64,000 nt of DNA from the human T2T-CHM13v2.0 reference genome, Homo sapiens. The notes under the pieces were generated by a model, which worked only from the letters and a program-made list of their open reading frames with translations, did not search any database and was not told where the DNA came from. Of this stretch, positions 15,525 through 63,674 are shown one piece after another (position 1 is the stretch's first letter; every line of letters begins with the position of its first letter). The stretch lies in assembly GCF_009914755.1 (NCBI RefSeq), contig NC_060931.1; one strand, written 5' to 3'. A program made the translations under genes and the position numbers.

Positions 15525-15923
<399 letters not shown>

Positions 15924-16291
15924 TAATCAGTAAAATAAATGGGACTAAGTCTCACTTAGAGCTGTAGCATATAGTGACATCATGCTTGTCTGGGACGAAG
16001 TAGCCTTTTTAAATTTTGGGGCCTCTTTAAATAATCTGTAGGATATCTCAAGAATCTCTAGAAATTCCCAAAAGTCCAAGAAAACCCTTCATTTCTCCAT
16101 GCTACCTCAGTGACACACCTCTCCATGATGTTCTTGGTGTACCTCTAGCAAGTACCACCCAGTCCCAGCTGACTAATATTAGATCCAAAGCCAGATCCTT
16201 GAACTTTAACTCCCTTGGGAAGACTAACTGTGGCATTAAACTCAATAAATGCACAAGCCAGACAGTGGGGCAAGCTCCTTTGGTGCTTTCA

Positions 16292-16642
<351 letters not shown>

Positions 16643-16861: not shown

Positions 16862-17284
<423 letters not shown>

Positions 17285-17344: not shown

Positions 17345-20390
<3,046 letters not shown>

Positions 20391-37950: not shown

Positions 37951-40900
37951 GTGTTATTGTAAGAGTTCCTTGCCGCCTCCACTCACCATCCTGCTTGTAT
38001 CTGCCAGCTCCGCCCCAAGGCCACATCCCGACAGTAGGGTGCATCTGCCAAGGTCGTGTTCACTCACCTAAAGGGTGCAGAAACAAGGGGGGAGAGAACG
38101 AGTGACGACACTAGGTGATATCTATGATTTTAAAGAAAAGCTGAATGTTTAGAGCTTCCATATTTGGCTACGTACTTCAGTTAGCGACGGAAAATAGTTT
38201 TTAAAGCTTTATTGGGGAATTAATTTTTGTTACGTTTTTTGTTGCTTCTAGCCCCATATCCTACTGATTTTTAGCATGCTGCGGTCAGAAATAAACTTAA
38301 TTCCCTATAGCTGCCGCGATTAAGCGTAGAGTGGCTTGCAGTTTCAAAAGCTGCTTTTGCATCAAGGCCCAAGCTCCGTGGGTCTCCTGCTAAAACTTTT
38401 GAGCCTGTGATCTGAATTCCTAAGTGTATAAAATTCTAGAATAGTGTCTTCGAGAATTGAGTTGCGTTCATTTTCTGGTGTGGACCATGAAGTCAACGTT
38501 AATGAATTGGGAATAAGGTGGCTTCTAGTTGTTTTTTGTTCTAGTAGCTTATTCAGCTTGGAGGCAGAGAACCTTGGAATCTCTGTTAAATTAGTCTGCC
38601 ATAGAATGGAACTTGACACAAGACAAATGCAAGTTTGACCTCACTCAGTAGATTTAATTAACCAAATACCAAACGACAGTAATCACTGAAGAATTTATAT
38701 AGTATAATCCAAATGAGGGACCAGATATAACCTCTAAGTTGTATTTGTCAAGAAAATGAGTTTGCCAAGACCTAATCTGAGGTTTTACTGTGATTGGGGG
38801 GTGGGGGGGTTCCAATAGGATTCTTTTGAGAATCACAAGTAGGAAAGCCATGAGCTCACAAAAATGTATTGAGTATGCCTGAGTGAATAGTACTCAATAT
38901 AGCTTTGAAACCAACTCATTGTCACTCTCAATGTAATCATTGTTTGTTTTCATTCATCCAGTGATGTGTCAAGAAGTACTTATTGATAGCACTTAATATC
39001 CATTAGAGCAGTATTGGGATCTATATATTGGTGTTATTTTTTAAAATTTATTTATTTTAGAGTTGAGGGTCTCAGTATGTTGACCAGGTGGAGCCTTGAA
39101 CTCCCATGCTCAAGCAGTCCTCCTGCCTCAGCCTCCCAAGTAGCTGAGACTAGAGGTATATAACACCACACCCTAGTACATTGGTGTTAACACAGATTTT
39201 CTGTAACGTAGGTATACCAGGGATATTGAAAGGACAGAGGTGTAGCCAAGGATAGCCACTGGAAATGCTAGCTAGGCCACAAGGCCCTAGATTCTCACTC
39301 TCTGAACTCTTAAGTATGGATGTTGCTGATGCAGTAATTTATGTATTAGAGTTAAGACAGCTGAAATAACACTTTTGCCTGTTCCTGGCTGATTGCCAGA
39401 TCCAGTAAACGGAATTGGAAGTTGGAGAACACAGGCAGGCAGGAACCACATTGCTGCCAAGTACCGCCCAATTAATTCAGTAAGATGTATTAATCCAGTA
39501 AAATGTATTGGTATCAAAAAAGTGCAAGACAATGTATTAGGGACAATATAGGGGTAATAATTTGTATTAGAATGATATGTAGACATTCTTCCAGAAATGT
39601 CGATTCTAAAGGGGAGCTAAGGAGACAACTTAAGGTAACCTATGGTCATTGTTTTTGAGTGGTTCAGACGAGTTTTATAGAAGTTTAGATTGGATCATAC
39701 CCTTTTTGTCCAAAAAGAGAAAAAGATAACAGATCACTTCCAGCTAGAGTGATCATAGTAGGTAGGTCTTCTAGGATCTTAAATTTATTTATAGACATCT
39801 GGCACTGAAGGAAGTTTGAGCTAAAATAACTACCAAATTCTCAACAGTGTCACGCATGTTACACATGCACAGCAAAATTACAACTAGAAACCAAGGCTCC
39901 TATCCATACATTTCAAATAGCATTTCTCTCACAATTGATTATGTATTAAGGCTTGTCAACGAAAAGGAAACTTTTTTCTCTCAGAATTTCTAGAACTTTT
40001 TTCTTTAAAAAGTTTTTTATTCTGTAGCCAGAAAAATTTAAAGTTTGTGCTGGGTTGCTTTGGTTATAGAACTAATGAAGCTTGAGTAATAGTTTCAGAC
40101 ATTCTCAGGGTTTTTCTTCTGCAGCCAGATTTTACACTTCTATTATCTCAGCTGTCTTATAAATGTATTCCCTCCATCACACAATATAATTAGAATGTAT
40201 TGATGAACAGATGTAACTTCATCACTAGAGAGACGTTAAATAAATTATGTGTTGGTATCATGACTTTTATCAAATCATGAAGGATGCCATCACTTTTATG
40301 TGATAGTCCATTGGTATAGTACTAAAGTTTGTAAGTAAAGAATGTCAGATAGATAACAAGATAACTTCATTTTCGAGATCTCATAACCTGGGCCTTAGTA
40401 TAGTTAAATTGCTATCAGTCTGTTCCCTGTAATCTCCAATTGAAGTAGACAGTTAAACAATGAGATCCTGCTTTTGCTGCGTTATGGAGAAATAAATGCC
40501 TTTTCTGGTGAATATCCATCCAGCTCAGAGAACTGGAATTTTACTACCACACCCATTTCTCCCAATTGTTAACATTGAGCAATGGGTCTTTGGTCAACCA
40601 GAATAACTGTTGGATCACTCAGTGTTAACGTTCTTGTGAAGTTGAATTTAAACATCTAAATTTCCCTGAAACAATTTAAGTATTCTGTGACCAATGGCAC
40701 TTTACCAAAATTGAAAGTTTGGGCCATGTATTGCTCGCAATACTGGTCCAATGGATACACTATGGACACTAAGGACAAAAACTTCCTTGAAAGCTCTAAG
40801 TTCTTACCTGAAGGGTGGGGTAGGGAGAAGTGATAAGAATTTAGAGCTTTTAAGGACATTTTTGGATGGATCGAAGAAACCAATTCTTAAGACTCATTAT

Positions 40901-41064
40901 TATTAAAATCACACTTAACCCAGTTAGGCTTTTCTCTTTATAAATTACTGGAACGATTCATGAAAACAACTTTATAGAAGACCATTATTGGTGACATACT
41001 AATACTACAAAAGGATGATAGCTACTGGATATATTTTCTGTTCTAATCTTTTGGTTTGTGTCTA

Positions 41065-41293
41065 ACATGCTGTCCAATAAAAATATAATACAAGCCACAT
41101 ATGTAATTTTAAATTTTCAGGTGAAAATCTAAAACAGGTGAAAGTAATTTTAATAATGTTTAATCTAATACATATAAAATACCATTCTTTCAATATGAAA
41201 TGTAACACTTATACCAATCGCAATTCACACTAGCCACATTTCAAGTGCTTAGTAGTCACATGTGGCTAGTGGCTACTGTACTGGGCAGTACAG
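41065..41293. mobile_element. MER33/MER3-type hAT-Charlie element
   Basis: gctgtccaata...tagccacatttcaagtgctt...tggctagtggctac. Confidence 0.8.
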
Positions 41294-41663
41294 GCCTAGA
41301 TTTTTTTTTTTTCCCAAGAAAAAAATATTAGATGTTACCCTTCGTGGAAGAGGGACAGAATTTTAGAGAGAGAAACTCATTTGAGAAATGGGAGGTGGGG
41401 AAATTCAGTTTTCACAACCATTGGTTTACTTTCTAGATCACATGATAAAAGCTCATACAGCTAAGTCTTTTGTTTATGTGTATCATATTTTTCCTAATAT
41501 TATGTTGTCCATTATGTCCATAGTATATCCATTGGACCAGTATTGTGATCAGTATGTATGGCCCAATGGATACACAAAGATCTTTCCAGCTGGAAGTGAT
41601 CTGTACCTATTCCTCTAAACTTTTTTTTTACTTTTTGGACAAAAGTATCCAATTTAAACTTTT

Positions 41664-41947
41664 TTTTTTCTTTTTCTTTTTTTGAGACAGGGTCTTGTTC
41701 CCTCACCAAGGCTGGAGTGTGGTGGCATGATCATGACTCACTGTAACCTCGTGTCTCCGGGGCTCAGGCGATCCTCCCACTTCAGCTTCCCCGGTAGCTG
41801 GGACTATAGCTGCGCCACCACACCCAGCTAATTTTTTGTATTTTTGGTGGAGATGGGATTGCCTAGGCTGGTCTTGAACACCAGCATTCCATCCGCCTTG
41901 GCCCTCCAAAGTGCTGGGATTACAGGCTTGAGCCACTGCTGCTGGCC
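41664..41947 (-). mobile_element. Alu (J-like)
   Basis: Diverged antisense Alu; TSD caatttaaactttt (41650) / cagtctaaactttt (41948). Confidence 0.9.
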
Positions 41948-42024
41948 CAGTCTAAACTTTTATAAAGTGTTGAAGTGGGTGAGGAAAATGAGAAGGGCCA
42001 TTAACTTTGTATCATTTGGTTTCA

Positions 42025-42402
<378 letters not shown>

Positions 42403-43481
42403 TTATTTTTTACTGTTCCTTTCACATCTTCCCACGTAAGATATCCTTTGTCTTAGATGTCCTTTGTTTCTGCTTGAACATACATGCTCCATACCAAAAA
42501 CCATATGGTTTTAGATAAATCTAGTACAGTTTTTGGTATGGATGGTGTTTTTTGTTTTTAGTGTCTATATTCATAAAACAAGAGGGCTTTGTTAAAGTTT
42601 CTAATAGCCAGGAGTTGTTATATATGTGGGCACAAAGGACGTTTTGTTTTTTTTTAAGTAGAACTTCTTTAAAGTGCAGATTTTTCATTCCTCCCTGCAG
42701 AAAGATAAAGAAGTAAAGATGGACCATTGGCTTTGTCCATCTGGGTCCTTGATGACCGTTGTAGGCAGTTTCATCAATAGTAAGGAAGCCAGGTTTCAGG
42801 GTAGCATTGGACAGTGAGGAAGCAGAGGCAGCAGGGTAGAAACTGTGGGTGAGGGAAAGGGAGGAGCAAGCATGAAGGAACAGCACAGTCTGGGAAAGAC
42901 TGTGGGTAGTGGAGACCTGAGAAGCACTGATTGACAGAATGGAGGAGCCTGTTTAAGGGATGAGATTGAAAGTTTATTCAGGAGAGGGGAAGGAAGGAGA
43001 AATGGGTGAGTGATAAAGCTAAATCACTTGGCTTCTACTCTTTGGAATTCTGGTATCCTTGTATCAAGATATTAAGCCTGAAACATAAATGTAGTTTTCC
43101 CTCTAAATCACAGAGTAAACCAATCTATTACATTTCTGTATGCTACATGTCTCAAAACTTGGTACAGTATCCTTTCCAGGACCAGATTATGTTAGAGTGC
43201 ATAAGTATTTATTCATATTGTAATATTTGGGGTTGGCAAGAATTGTTAGGGTATTATGCTATATTTTATTTTGAGAATGTAATCATTTGTAAAATTTTCC
43301 TAAAGATAAAGTCCCCTTAGGCATAAGGAAAATCCTTTGTTGCAGTGACTCTTGATTTTACTTGATTCTGCAAGCCTCTGTCACTATACATATTGTTGGG
43401 ATATATCCCAAAACATCAACAACATATAATTCTGTTTTTTGTTTCCAAAGTTTTGTTTATCTAAAGAATTATTTGTTTATA

Positions 43482-45211: not shown

Positions 45212-46498
45212 CATTCTTTTTAACCTTTGTGTATTTTTCCATAATCGAGATTTAATATATTTTACCAATTCTCTGTTTTTATTTGTTTTCCGATTTTTTA
45301 ATCATTGTGAACTGTCATCATTGAACATCTTAATACAAGTATCTTTGTCTGTAAATGTGGGTATTTTGATGGGATTGAATGAAACAATGTTGAGAAACAT
45401 AGCCAAGTTCTAACATTGATAGGAATAGAGTAATAAGTACCATCTTCTACCCATTTCTCTATGGGTTTCATGGTCTTGCTTTCACATTGCTTCTTCTGAT
45501 GGATTTTCCTAAGTCTTAACCTTCACGTCATCAGTAACAGTACCTTATTTGAGACTGGGGCACTTGGGAATGACTGCCCCCCAACCCCCGCCCCCATTAT
45601 CTCCTTAGGTACTTTTCTGTTTGTCTTACTGTGTTGTCGTATTTACTCTAGAACACTTTCCACTCTCTACTGATATGTCCTCCTCTGCCATTTCAGGACC
45701 TCCCACCCTCCCCCACTGAGCTGCCTTCCCAGTGATGAAAGAAAAAATGTAAAAGCCTGAAAACCCTTCTTCTTGATTTTTAATTTTTTTTTTTCCCTCT
45801 AAGACCTTAACCACTCTGGATAGTATCACGGGGTATCAGTAGAGTGTGCTAAACAGATGTGTACTCTGCAGCTTCTTTGCAGGTTTTTTGTCACATTTTT
45901 CAGTCAAGTGTTCCAGCTTTGTGCTTGTTCATTAGAGTCACCTGTGACTACAGAGATTCTGAAAGTTTGAATCAGGGCCTGGGAATCTGTACTTTGAACA
46001 GTACTACAGGTGGTATTTATGCCTAGGCAAGTATGGGAAACAACTGTGCAGAAGGATAAAGACGTTCTTATCTATGACTAGACCATCTGAATGATTTGGC
46101 CTTTGAAGGTGACTCAAGGTTGAGCCTGGATGTTGGAGACTTGGTGCTATAGACCAAGGAAGCTGCCAAGTATTTCGCTGGTTCCTAATCTCATGAACAT
46201 CAGAATCACCTGAAAAACATTTAAAGCTACGAATGTCTGAATTCAGCTTCAGAGACTCTAAATCAATAGGAGAAACTTAAAGCTTCCTAGATGATTCTAA
46301 TAACCAGCCATGTTTGAAGACCAGACCACCAATGCGTACAAGAAGTAAAGGATTTGGAGTCAACATTTAAACCTTGGTTCTTTCACTTTTAATTCTTATG
46401 AACTTGGGCAAAAGGATTAAAATTCTACTTTGGTATCTTTTGAAAGAAAACAGAAAGTGGACATTTTAACTATAAGTTTCTTATCAGCCTACAATCAG

Positions 46499-46511
46499 AT
46501 GAAGGAAACTG
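46499..46511 (+). CDS. CALU: CALU optional microexon, coding part (MKET + G; gives [14 protein letters not shown]-extension)
   Basis: ATG AAG GAA ACT G|gtaaaa joins in frame to the exon at 46717; acceptors ttatcag| (46488) or aatcag| (46499). Confidence 0.65.
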
Positions 46512-58363: not shown

Positions 58364-58489
58364 GATGTATTTGCCCATAGAAACAATTTACTCCAAGGGT
58401 CAATTCTCACTAGCTCATTAGCTGTCACCAGATCATTAACCAGACCAGTGTGATAGTGGGTTGTGATAAAGTATCCGTAGCCACATTGC

Positions 58490-58725
58490 CCAATCAAAAT
58501 ATAAATGTGAGCCCCATATGTAATTTTAACTTTTCTAATAGCCACATTAAAAAGTAAAAAGAAACAGATGAAATTTCAGTAGTTATTTAACCTAATATTC
58601 TAAAACTCTATAATTTCCACTTAATGTAAATTATTGAGGGTTTTTTTTTAATACTTAAAGCACATCCCAGCCACATTTCAAGTGCTTAATAAGCACCTGT
58701 GGCTACCATCCTCAACAGCACAGAT
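58490..58725. mobile_element. MER33/MER3-type element
   Basis: atatgtaattttaacttttctaatagccacatt...gccacatttcaagtgctt. Confidence 0.7.
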
Positions 58726-62293: not shown

Positions 62294-62586
62294 GGCCGGA
62301 TGCCGTAGCTCATTCCTGTAATCCCAGAACTTTGGGAGGCTGAGGCAGGTGAATCACTTGAGCCCAGGAGTTTGAGAACAACCTGGACAACATGGCGCAA
62401 CCCTGTCTCTACAAAAAATACAAAAAAAAAGAAAAAATTAGCCAGGCATGGTGGCGTGTGCCTGTAGTCCCAGCAACTCAGGAGGATCACTTGAGCCTGA
62501 GGGTTTGAGGTTGCAGTGCACCGTTATTGTACCACTGCACTCCAGCCTGGGCAACAGAGCAAGACCCTGTCTCAGAAGAAAAAAGA
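62294..62586 (+). mobile_element. Alu (J-like)
   Basis: TSD aaagaata(g/a)tctctgttgg. Confidence 0.9.
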
Positions 62587-63079
62587 ATAATCTCTGTTGG
62601 TGATAAGCATTGACATTTTGAAAGTAATTCGGAAAGAAATCTATAAAATTTAAATACAAGATACCATAGCAACTTCTTACCTGCCGTCTTTCATATGAAT
62701 AATTTGGACACGACAACTTTAAAAAGATAATCAAGAAATTTAAATTCAGTCTGGGTATTAGATGATACCAAGGAATTGATTTTGTAAAATATGAAAGTGG
62801 CATTGTGGGTATATAAGAAAATATCCGTAATTTTTTACATTTCATAATAGTTAAAAAGGAAATGTTTCTTTGGTACTTTTTTTTTTTTAGTTATGGCGTT
62901 TGGTTAGCAACAATGTGACCATCACTTAATTGCCCTTTTTTTTGTTTAAATTTATAGGGATTTGGGGATATTTATACTACTTATCAGTCACCACATGATA
63001 TTGTCTTAAAAAAATAAATGAATAAACTGTTAACCAACTTGGACATTTTACACGCATCCTGTTTCTTCTTCTTCTTCTT

Positions 63080-63674
<595 letters not shown>

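What the first reader, a model, noticed from the sequence alone, without database searches (positions are those of the whole stretch)
39620..42022. Candidate ~2.4-kb nested long-range RNA structure in unique sequence of CALU intron 1
Seen: non-Alu segments ~1.9 kb apart are exact reverse complements. acagatcacttccagct (39729-39745) pairs with agctggaagtgatctgt (41588-41604), 17/17. ttttgtccaaaaag (39704-39717) pairs with ctttttggacaaaa (41631-41644), 14/14. aagtttagattggat (39681-39695) pairs with 41647-41661. These colinear helices enclose a second ~50-bp helix (40719-40768 / 41515-41566) and several local hairpins, all properly nested. Many mismatches are G-U on the + (CALU pre-mRNA) strand. 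Inference: a large multibranch fold that may shorten the 9-kb intron, act as an ADAR/dsRBP substrate, or be a stable intronic RNA. I know of no description of it but cannot search.
Basis: partly seen in the sequence, partly recalled or inferred. Interest (0 to 1): 0.85.

Follow-up and report, generated by a model that had tools for sequence, protein, structure and literature searches.

The report
Old single-copy inverted duplication, CALU intron
Two nested pairs of reverse-complementary segments in the first intron of the human calumenin gene are real and not transposon copies, but they look like a decaying relic of an old local inverted duplication, not an RNA structure kept by selection.

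Summary
Arm A (39674-39759) pairs with 41574-41663 plus 41962-41966, a right arm split by an old antisense Alu. Arm B (40719-40778) pairs with 41505-41566. Chance is excluded, and these are the only non-Alu long-range inverted pairs in the 64-kb window.

Every non-Alu sub-segment except a separate MITE-like repeat (41068-41300) matches only itself or its partner in the 3.1-Gb genome. No target-site duplication or transposase remnant was found.

The + strand RNA is predicted to form both helices (about -81 and -86 kcal/mol), even beside a 218-pair Alu-Alu duplex. The - strand folds as well or better (z -7.8 against -6.4). G-U-compatible mismatches are 7 against 3 (p = 0.34). The arms carry 6 indels and tolerated an Alu insertion.

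Best reading: an old local inverted duplication, probably from replication template switching, that forms intronic dsRNA incidentally. Conservation, covariation, duplex-mapping and editing data could not be tested. Interest is low to moderate.

The parts
39674..39759 (.). Arm A, left copy
   Evidence: Pairs with 41574-41663 plus 41962-41966: 72 matches, 8 mismatches, 21 gap columns. Single-copy in the genome.
39760..40718 (.). Single-copy stretch of about 960 nt separating A from B on the left; it has no counterpart on the right
   Evidence: Matches only itself in the genome, with 1 first-look candidate. No significant inverted match to the right side.
40719..40778 (.). Arm B, left copy; also partly self-complementary
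   Evidence: Pairs with 41505-41566: 52 matches, 8 mismatches, 2 gap columns. Its own hairpin folds at -18.2 kcal/mol, z -2.4. A 31-mer core pattern with up to 3 mismatches occurs only in the two arms genome-wide.
40776..40864 (.). Local hairpin directly after arm B (31-nt arms)
   Evidence: I5. RNA fold -37.8 kcal/mol, z -6.2 on +; -31.8 kcal/mol, z -8.1 on -. Single-copy. Only a chance-level Rfam hit, E = 0.61.
41068..41300 (.). Separate high-copy MITE-like interspersed repeat in the spacer, with its own hairpin at 41228-41271
   Evidence: 1093 first-look candidates, with matches at 76-92% identity on many chromosomes. HSPs from 29 of 29 fetched copies cover 41068-41300. Second copy in the window at 58487-58705.
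41505..41566 (.). Arm B', the reverse-complement copy of B
41559..41575 (.). Direct 17-nt partial copy of the B core at the B'/A' junction; forms a local hairpin with 41523-41539
   Evidence: D2 (16 of 17 identical to 40744-40760). I17. Fold.
41574..41663 (.). Arm A', inner part, the reverse-complement copy of A
41664..41948 (-). Old antisense Alu inserted into arm A', flanked by a 13-nt target-site duplication (41651-41663 and 41949-41961, 11 of 13 identical)
   Evidence: Rfam SRP-like hit at 41682-41828 on the - strand. Duplication located. 26 of 225 private non-CpG differences from a 40-Alu window consensus, sixth oldest of 40.
41949..41966 (.). Second copy of the target-site duplication plus the last 5 nt (ATAAA) of arm A'
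   Evidence: I12. Alignment after Alu removal runs to 41966.
42069..42361 (+). Sense Alu that can pair with the antisense Alu inside arm A'
   Evidence: Rfam hits. I1, I2, I4, I6 and I9. 218 predicted Alu-Alu pairs alongside helices A and B.

Best explanation
This is a single-copy relic of an old local inverted duplication at the DNA level. A block of about 165 nt on the right (41505-41663 plus 41962-41966) is a reverse-complement patchwork of two left-hand segments, A and B, that lie 960 nt apart. The junction between B' and A' carries a short extra direct copy of the B core. This layout is best explained by replication template switching with more than one jump. Duplication followed by a deletion is the alternative. 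The event predates an old Alu that later landed in arm A'. Since then the arms have decayed by substitutions and indels, roughly as neutral DNA does. Occasional arm-to-arm homogenisation may have slowed the decay. When intron 1 is transcribed, the arms are predicted to form two nested helices closing a domain of about 1.9 kb next to an inverted-Alu duplex. That would make incidental intronic dsRNA, a plausible ADAR or dsRNA-binding-protein target, which is removed with the intron. Shown: the anatomy, the single-copy status, the order of events relative to the Alu, the thermodynamic pairing potential, and the lack of strand asymmetry. Inferred: template switching as the origin, neutrality, and formation of the structure in cells.
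For: Single-copy status: each sub-segment searched alone against the 3.1-Gb genome matched only itself or its own partner. These were 39660-39770, 40690-40880, 39760-40720, 41320-41661, 40860-41070 and 41949-42068. The B-core 31-mer with up to 3 mismatches occurs only in the two arms, with 0 control hits. The same search method found copies of the neighbouring MITE-like repeat down to 76% identity. Transposon hallmarks are absent. The best adjacent 8-mer target-site duplication is 6 of 8, a score reached by 288 of 500 random place pairs. The flanking direct repeat is not significant, with 684 of 1923 random pairs scoring as well. 0 of 18 stop-to-stop frames hit Pfam. Patchwork layout: B' and A' are 7 nt apart on the right, while A and B are 960 nt apart on the left, and a 17-nt direct copy of the B core sits at the junction (D2). 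Older than the Alu: the left arm matches the empty-site sequence on both sides of the Alu, including 5 of 5 nt beyond the target-site duplication. No RNA-strand signature: duplex energies are -80.6 (+) and -79.8 (-) for A, and -85.6 (+) and -82.7 (-) for B; G-U-compatible transitions are 7 against 3, p = 0.34. MFE z is -6.8 (+) and -8.4 (-) with 6 shuffles each, and -6.4 (+) and -7.8 (-) with 10 shuffles each on the Alu-free construct. Decay: 16 substitutions and 6 indel events; identity is 124 of 163 columns when gap columns are counted. [quoted passage not shown] Homogenisation of inverted-repeat arms is described in PMC8604942 (abstract and passages seen).
Against: Substitution divergence between the arms in ungapped columns is 16 of 140 (11.4%). 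That is about half of twice the Alu's private non-CpG divergence of 26 of 225, or 11.6%. Composition does not explain the gap: the Alu's rates are 10.1% at A/T sites and 12.9% at non-CpG G/C sites. Strict neutrality since before the Alu insertion would predict about 22-23%. This could reflect constraint or homogenisation. It could also reflect ascertainment of arm limits, gaps absorbing diverged stretches, or overestimated Alu divergence. A very old, low-copy transposon family would escape the pairwise searches used, and no Dfam or RepeatMasker run was possible. Template switching itself cannot be shown without outgroup genomes. The published short-range template-switch events are tens of bases long, not 60-90 nt copied over 0.7-1.9 kb.
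Confidence: 0.6

Rival explanations
1. It is the decayed remnant of an ancient, low-copy DNA transposon or foldback-type element. A and B would be its long terminal or subterminal inverted repeats, and the three occurrences of the B core would be subterminal binding-site repeats.
For: The architecture is nested and palindromic, with a motif present three times: 40744-40760 (+), 41523-41539 (-) and 41559-41575 (+). The sequence is AT-rich. The ends read TTTATA...TATAAA, so a palindromic TA target-site duplication cannot be excluded. Pairwise searches here would miss families whose copies are less than about 76% alike (one search shows that detection floor). No consensus library of human repeats was available.
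Against: No other copy of any arm or interior segment was found in 3.1 Gb. The 42 genome matches to the A 20-mer pattern, against 6 for the reversed control, showed no flanking similarity: the longest HSPs were 55-73 nt at about 70% in A-rich sequence, and the exact C13 match was 20 nt only. They formed no family with arm A. There is no target-site duplication beyond a possible TA and no transposase trace. Arms 84-90% alike imply an origin recent enough that sister copies should be detectable. The left and right ends are asymmetric by 960 nt of single-copy DNA.
Confidence: 0.2
2. It is a selected long-range RNA structure of the CALU pre-mRNA. It would loop out about 1.9 kb of intron 1 or act as a dedicated non-Alu dsRNA platform for ADAR or other dsRNA-binding proteins, with pairing maintained by selection.
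For: Both helices are in the minimum-energy fold in all three + strand contexts tried: A 66 and B 57 pairs, and A 63 and B 57 pairs beside the Alu-Alu duplex. Energies are about -81 and -86 kcal/mol. The arms are about twofold less diverged by substitution than the Alu clock predicts. The G-U bias leans towards the + strand, 7 against 3. Intronic complementary pairs are reported as enriched inside introns, with ADAR-edited sites much more enriched below -30 kcal/mol (PMC8052449, passages seen).
Against: The - strand is equally or more stable. The G-U bias is not significant, p = 0.34. There are 6 indel events (23 gap columns) in the arms, and an Alu insertion inside arm A' was tolerated. No annotated exon or splice site is enclosed or adjacent (hub table). 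No Rfam family matches. CALU has 0 occurrences in the main texts of PMC8052449 and PMC10691357 (listing) and 0 in the three held supplements of PMC8052449. Arm homogenisation without selection is a documented alternative for arms that stay alike.
Confidence: 0.12
3. It is a chance complementarity of AT-rich intron sequence.
For: Arm A includes low-complexity A/T runs. The 20-mer A core has 42 near matches genome-wide.
Against: E-values are 1.4e-10 for B and 2e-5 for A against the whole window. The two pairs are colinear and nested. The fold lies 6-8 sd below dinucleotide shuffles. No other such non-Alu pair exists in 64 kb.
Confidence: 0.01

Closest known systems
Inverted repeats and hairpins created by replication template switching (Loytynoja and Goldman 2017, PMC5453318; Monttinen and Loytynoja 2022, PMC8794818, search listing only)
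   Same: A reverse-complement copy of nearby sequence, made in one or a few steps. [quoted passage not shown]
   Different: The published short-range events are tens of bases long and very local. Here the copied pieces are 60-90 nt, lie 0.7-1.9 kb from their sources, and come from two sources 960 nt apart. This is closer to FoSTeS/MMBIR-type multi-jump events. The mechanism is inferred here, not shown.
Pairs of conserved complementary regions (PCCRs) and RIC-seq-supported long-range intronic structures (Kalmykova et al. 2021, PMC8052449; Margasyuk et al. 2023, PMC10691357)
   Same: Non-repeat complementary segments inside one intron of a protein-coding gene, with duplex energy far below the -30 kcal/mol class.
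   Different: PCCRs are defined within conserved intronic regions and are 10-50 nt long (passage). Here the arms are 60-95 nt, conservation is untested, and CALU is not named in either main text or in the held supplements of the first paper. The supplements of the second paper could not be read.
Inverted Alu pairs (IRAlus) as intronic dsRNA and ADAR substrates
   Same: Long, imperfect intronic duplexes formed by inverted copies within a few kb. One such pair lies directly beside and partly inside this structure (218 predicted pairs).
   Different: Arms A and B are not Alu and not any detectable repeat.
MITE or foldback DNA transposons with long terminal inverted repeats
   Same: Inverted termini enclosing an AT-rich interior with internal palindromes. 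A real MITE-like element sits in the spacer (41068-41300).
   Different: No other copies, no target-site duplication, asymmetric ends.

Membership tests
DNA transposon with terminal inverted repeats (MITE or foldback) | Multiple dispersed copies in the genome | tested here: not met
   Each sub-segment matched only itself or its partner. The B 31-mer with up to 3 mismatches gave 2 of 2 hits in the element's own arms. The A 20-mer near matches lack flanking similarity. Limit: families whose copies are under about 76% alike would be missed.
DNA transposon with terminal inverted repeats (MITE or foldback) | Target-site duplication directly flanking the inverted termini | tested here: not met
   The best 8-mer is 6 of 8, reached by 288 of 500 random place pairs. 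The gapped flank repeat is reached by 684 of 1923 random pairs. A 2-nt TA cannot be excluded because the ends are themselves palindromic.
DNA transposon with terminal inverted repeats (MITE or foldback) | Match to a curated repeat consensus (Dfam or Repbase), or transposase remnants | tested here: inconclusive
   Pfam gave 0 hits for 18 stop-to-stop frames. No Dfam or RepeatMasker library was on hand. The hub's masked list shows only the longest stretches.
Conserved long-range intronic RNA structure (PCCR type) | Stable complementarity between two non-repeat segments of one intron | tested here: met
   Duplex energies are -80.6 kcal/mol for A and -85.6 kcal/mol for B on the + strand. Both helices are present in the minimum-energy folds. 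The arms are non-repeat.
Conserved long-range intronic RNA structure (PCCR type) | Both segments lie in evolutionarily conserved sequence with compensatory substitutions | not testable with these tools
   No other eukaryotic genome or alignment is held; the window's genome has no relatives here (header). The internal Alu-clock comparison is ambiguous.
Conserved long-range intronic RNA structure (PCCR type) | Signature specific to the transcribed strand (G-U tolerance, better fold on the sense strand) | tested here: not met
   G-U-compatible transitions are 7 against 3, p = 0.34. z is -6.4 (+) against -7.8 (-).
Inverted-Alu dsRNA | Arms are Alu elements in opposite orientation | tested here: not met
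   Arms A and B have no SRP/Alu hit in Rfam and do not overlap the 92 Alu-like intervals of the window. The neighbouring pair 41664-41948 / 42069-42361 does meet this feature.
Local inverted duplication by template switching | Both copies single-copy, close together, in reverse-complement orientation and colinear | tested here: met
   with single-copy status.
Local inverted duplication by template switching | Ancestral state without the copy seen in outgroup genomes | not testable with these tools

The most novel reading that the evidence does not exclude
The two helices are kept alike by selection, not by chance or homogenisation. The arms show about half the substitution divergence that the embedded Alu's clock predicts. 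Together they would form a dedicated, non-Alu, roughly 1.9-kb structured RNA domain in CALU intron 1. Such a domain could recruit ADAR or other dsRNA-binding proteins, or set the splicing kinetics of the 9-kb first intron and the use of the alternative exon at 45697-46511.
Probability: 0.1. Interest if true: 0.5.

Novelty: new member of a known kind. Interest (0 to 1): 0.22.

Why it matters
If the helices form in cells, CALU intron 1 would carry a non-repeat duplex of 60-90 bp next to an inverted-Alu duplex. That would be a natural case for asking how unique-sequence dsRNA in introns is edited, sensed or cleared. As an evolutionary object, it may be a kilobase-range, multi-jump template-switch product that can be dated against an embedded Alu. 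It would bear on how long RNA stems arise without selection. As it stands, it is one more intronic inverted repeat among the many long-range complementary pairs already catalogued, and it shows no sign of function.

Tried and rejected
1. Transposon termini. Rejected as the leading reading after genome searches of every sub-segment, a mismatch-tolerant B-core pattern, target-site duplication tests and a Pfam scan.

2. The A-core 20-mer pattern gave 42 matches against 6 for the reversed control, including one exact match on C13. This briefly suggested a family. I fetched all 40 other places. Similarity did not extend beyond the core and the places formed no family. The reversed control contains a CpG, so it likely understates chance.

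3. A profile search of the genome with two-row arm alignments was not accepted for DNA and was not pursued further.

5. Rfam at E up to 1 gave only Alu-derived hits and one chance-level hit on the 40776-40864 hairpin.

6. An inward extension of the B pairing (40779-40971 against 41330-41504) appeared only as a low-identity tail of a local alignment. It was not recovered by blastn, so I did not count it.

7. Literature. Four searches found nothing on this locus or these sequence strings. Supplements of PMC8052449 held no CALU entry.

8. The Alu-clock test for constraint was ambiguous. It depends on whether gap columns are counted: 11.4% against 24%.
Full report
**The observation**

The quoted pairings are in the sequence at the stated coordinates.
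- 39729-45 and 41588-604 match 17/17.
- 39704-17 and 41631-44 match 14/14.
- 39681-95 and 41647-61 match 14/15.

The repeat finder lists them as I7, I11 and I12, and the inner helix as I3 (50 nt, 86%).

An antisense Alu (41664-41948) interrupts the right outer arm. It has a 13-nt target-site duplication, 11 of 13 identical. With the Alu removed:
- Arm A (39674-39759) aligns to 41574-41663 plus 41962-41966 with 72 matches, 8 mismatches and 21 gap columns.
- Arm B (40719-40778) aligns to 41505-41566 with 52 matches, 8 mismatches and 2 gap columns.

Chance is excluded. Against the whole window, E = 1.4e-10 for B and 2e-5 for A. In a whole-window self-comparison of 1614 minus-strand HSPs, six rows passed my filters. 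Two were inverted Alu pairs that slipped the filter, two were a local palindrome at 17372-17501, and two were A and B.

**What the span contains**

From left to right:
- arm A
- about 960 nt of single-copy DNA
- arm B, which is itself partly self-complementary
- a strong local hairpin at 40776-40864 (-37.8 kcal/mol, z -6.2 on +; z -8.1 on -)
- single-copy spacer
- a high-copy MITE-like repeat at 41068-41300, with its own inverted ends and hairpin (1093 first-look candidates; coverage by 29 of 29 fetched copies)
- more single-copy spacer
- B', a 17-nt direct partial copy of the B core (D2), and A', packed against each other
- the Alu, and then the last 5 nt of A'

A sense Alu at 42069-42361 lies just outside.

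**Is it a transposon?**

I searched the window's own 3.1-Gb genome with each sub-segment separately. These were 39660-39770, 40690-40880, 39760-40720, 41320-41661, 40860-41070 and 41949-42068. Each matched only itself or its own inverted partner. The same method found copies of the MITE-like repeat down to 76% identity.

A 31-letter B-core pattern with up to 3 mismatches hit only the two arms, with 0 control hits.

A 20-letter A-core pattern with up to 2 mismatches gave 42 hits against 6 for the reversed control, including one exact match on C13. This ran against my reading, so I fetched all 40 other places.
- Similarity did not extend beyond the core. The C13 match was 20 nt only. The longest HSPs were 55-73 nt at about 70% in A-rich sequence.
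- The places formed no family with each other or with arm A.
- The reversed control holds a CpG, so it likely understates chance.

No target-site duplication flanks the ends. None of 18 stop-to-stop frames hit Pfam.

The arms are 84-90% alike, so a transposon family of matching age should have left detectable sisters. A very old, low-copy family cannot be excluded without Dfam.

**Order of events and the clock**

The left arm matches the empty-site sequence on both sides of the Alu, including 5 of 5 nt beyond the duplication. The inverted repeat therefore predates the Alu.

That Alu has 26 of 225 (11.6%) private non-CpG differences from a consensus of 40 Alus in the window. It ranks sixth oldest of 40. 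From my recall of diagnostic positions it looks like an AluJ, but I did not test this.

Neutral decay would then predict about 22-23% divergence between the arms, and composition hardly changes this. The observed value depends on how gaps are treated:
- 16 of 140 (11.4%) in ungapped columns.
- 39 of 163 (24%) if gap columns are counted.

Indel events per 100 columns per lineage are similar: about 1.8 in the arms (6 events in 163 columns over two lineages) and 2.4 in the Alu (7 events in 295 columns).

The arms may therefore be somewhat more alike than neutral. The test is confounded by how the arm limits were chosen, by gap placement, and by the Alu estimate. Homogenisation of inverted-repeat arms without selection is also documented (PMC8604942; PMC5453318).

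**RNA structure**

| Construct | Strand | MFE (kcal/mol) | z | Shuffles |
|---|---|---|---|---|
| 39620-42022 | + | -678.7 | -6.8 | 6 |
| 39620-42022 | - | -666.3 | -8.4 | 6 |
| 39620-41663 (Alu-free) | + | -549.4 | -6.4 | 10 |
| 39620-41663 (Alu-free) | - | -553.6 | -7.8 | 10 |

- In the 39620-42022 folds, helix A has 66 pairs on + and 59 on -, and helix B has 57 on + and 52 on -.
- In the larger context 39400-42500, helix A (63 pairs) and helix B (57 pairs) coexist with a 218-pair Alu-Alu duplex.
- Duplex energies are -80.6 (+) and -79.8 (-) for A, and -85.6 (+) and -82.7 (-) for B.
- Of 16 substitutions, 7 are G-U-compatible on +, 3 on -, and 6 are transversions (p = 0.34).

The pairing potential is real and strong. 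It is a property of the DNA inverted repeat and not of the transcribed strand. Rfam has no family for the arms.

**Most likely explanation**

The right-hand block is a reverse-complement patchwork of two sources 960 nt apart. A short extra copy of B-core sequence sits at the junction. Everything is single-copy, and the event is older than an old Alu.

I read this as an old local inverted duplication made by replication template switching with more than one jump. Duplication followed by deletion is the alternative. Template switching is described as a one-step source of inverted repeats and hairpins, and long-range switches as copying from thousands of bases away (PMC5453318, passages seen).

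The mechanism is inferred, because no outgroup genome was available. In the pre-mRNA the arms would form incidental intronic dsRNA. At these energies, ADAR-edited sites are reported as strongly enriched in intronic complementary pairs (PMC8052449, passages seen). Editing here is plausible but untested. The helices enclose no annotated exon (hub table).

**Comparison and novelty**

The nearest kinds are:
- template-switch inverted repeats
- catalogued long-range intronic complementary pairs (PCCR and PHRIC)
- inverted-Alu dsRNA
- MITEs

It fails the tested transposon features and the inverted-Alu definition. It meets the thermodynamic part of the PCCR definition. Its conservation is untestable here.

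Nothing on this locus was found in four literature searches or in the held supplements of PMC8052449.

**Verdict**

This is a real, previously undescribed instance of a known kind, with no evidence of function. Interest is 0.22. The boldest reading still open is a selected non-Alu structured domain, at about 0.1 probability.

Noticed in passing
window 41068-41300 (also 58487-58705): A high-copy interspersed repeat of about 235 nt with inverted ends and an internal 12-bp perfect hairpin (41228-41239 / 41260-41271). It has over 1000 first-look candidates genome-wide at 76-92% identity. From recall it resembles a hAT-type MITE of the MER3/MER33 kind, but the name was not verified by any search.
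   Followed up: partly
window 41664-41948 (-) and 42069-42361 (+): An inverted Alu pair only about 120 nt apart, predicted to form a 218-pair duplex in CALU intron 1. It is a more conventional and much longer dsRNA than the reported helices, and it pre-empts the outermost 5 nt of helix A.
   Followed up: partly
window 40776-40864: A single-copy hairpin of pre-miRNA-like size with 31-nt arms (-37.8 kcal/mol, z -6.2 on +; z -8.1 on -), directly abutting arm B. There is no Rfam family beyond a chance-level hit (E = 0.61).
   Followed up: partly
window 17372-17501: A local non-Alu palindrome (40 nt at 90%; 128 nt at 69%) in GARIN1B, about 140 nt downstream of the exon ending at 17236. Seen in the whole-window self-comparison.
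   Followed up: no
window 15570-16632 and 62305-63351: Two further inverted Alu pairs about 1 kb across (Alus at 15596-15892 / 16317-16603 and 62308-62590 / 63069-63350). They passed my Alu filter by mistake.
   Followed up: no
L040 (G000:C7:135836359-135838378) and L041 (G000:C7:135873850-135875869): Two places 37 kb apart on the same chromosome are 91% identical over the 421 nt compared, which suggests a local segmental duplication. Both carry a 1-mismatch copy of the arm A 20-mer, but no further similarity to arm A.
   Followed up: no
window 41559-41575 against 40744-40760: A direct 16-of-17 copy of the B core sits exactly at the B'/A' junction, so the B core occurs three times (+, -, +). 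This could be a footprint of the rearrangement that built the right-hand block.
   Followed up: partly
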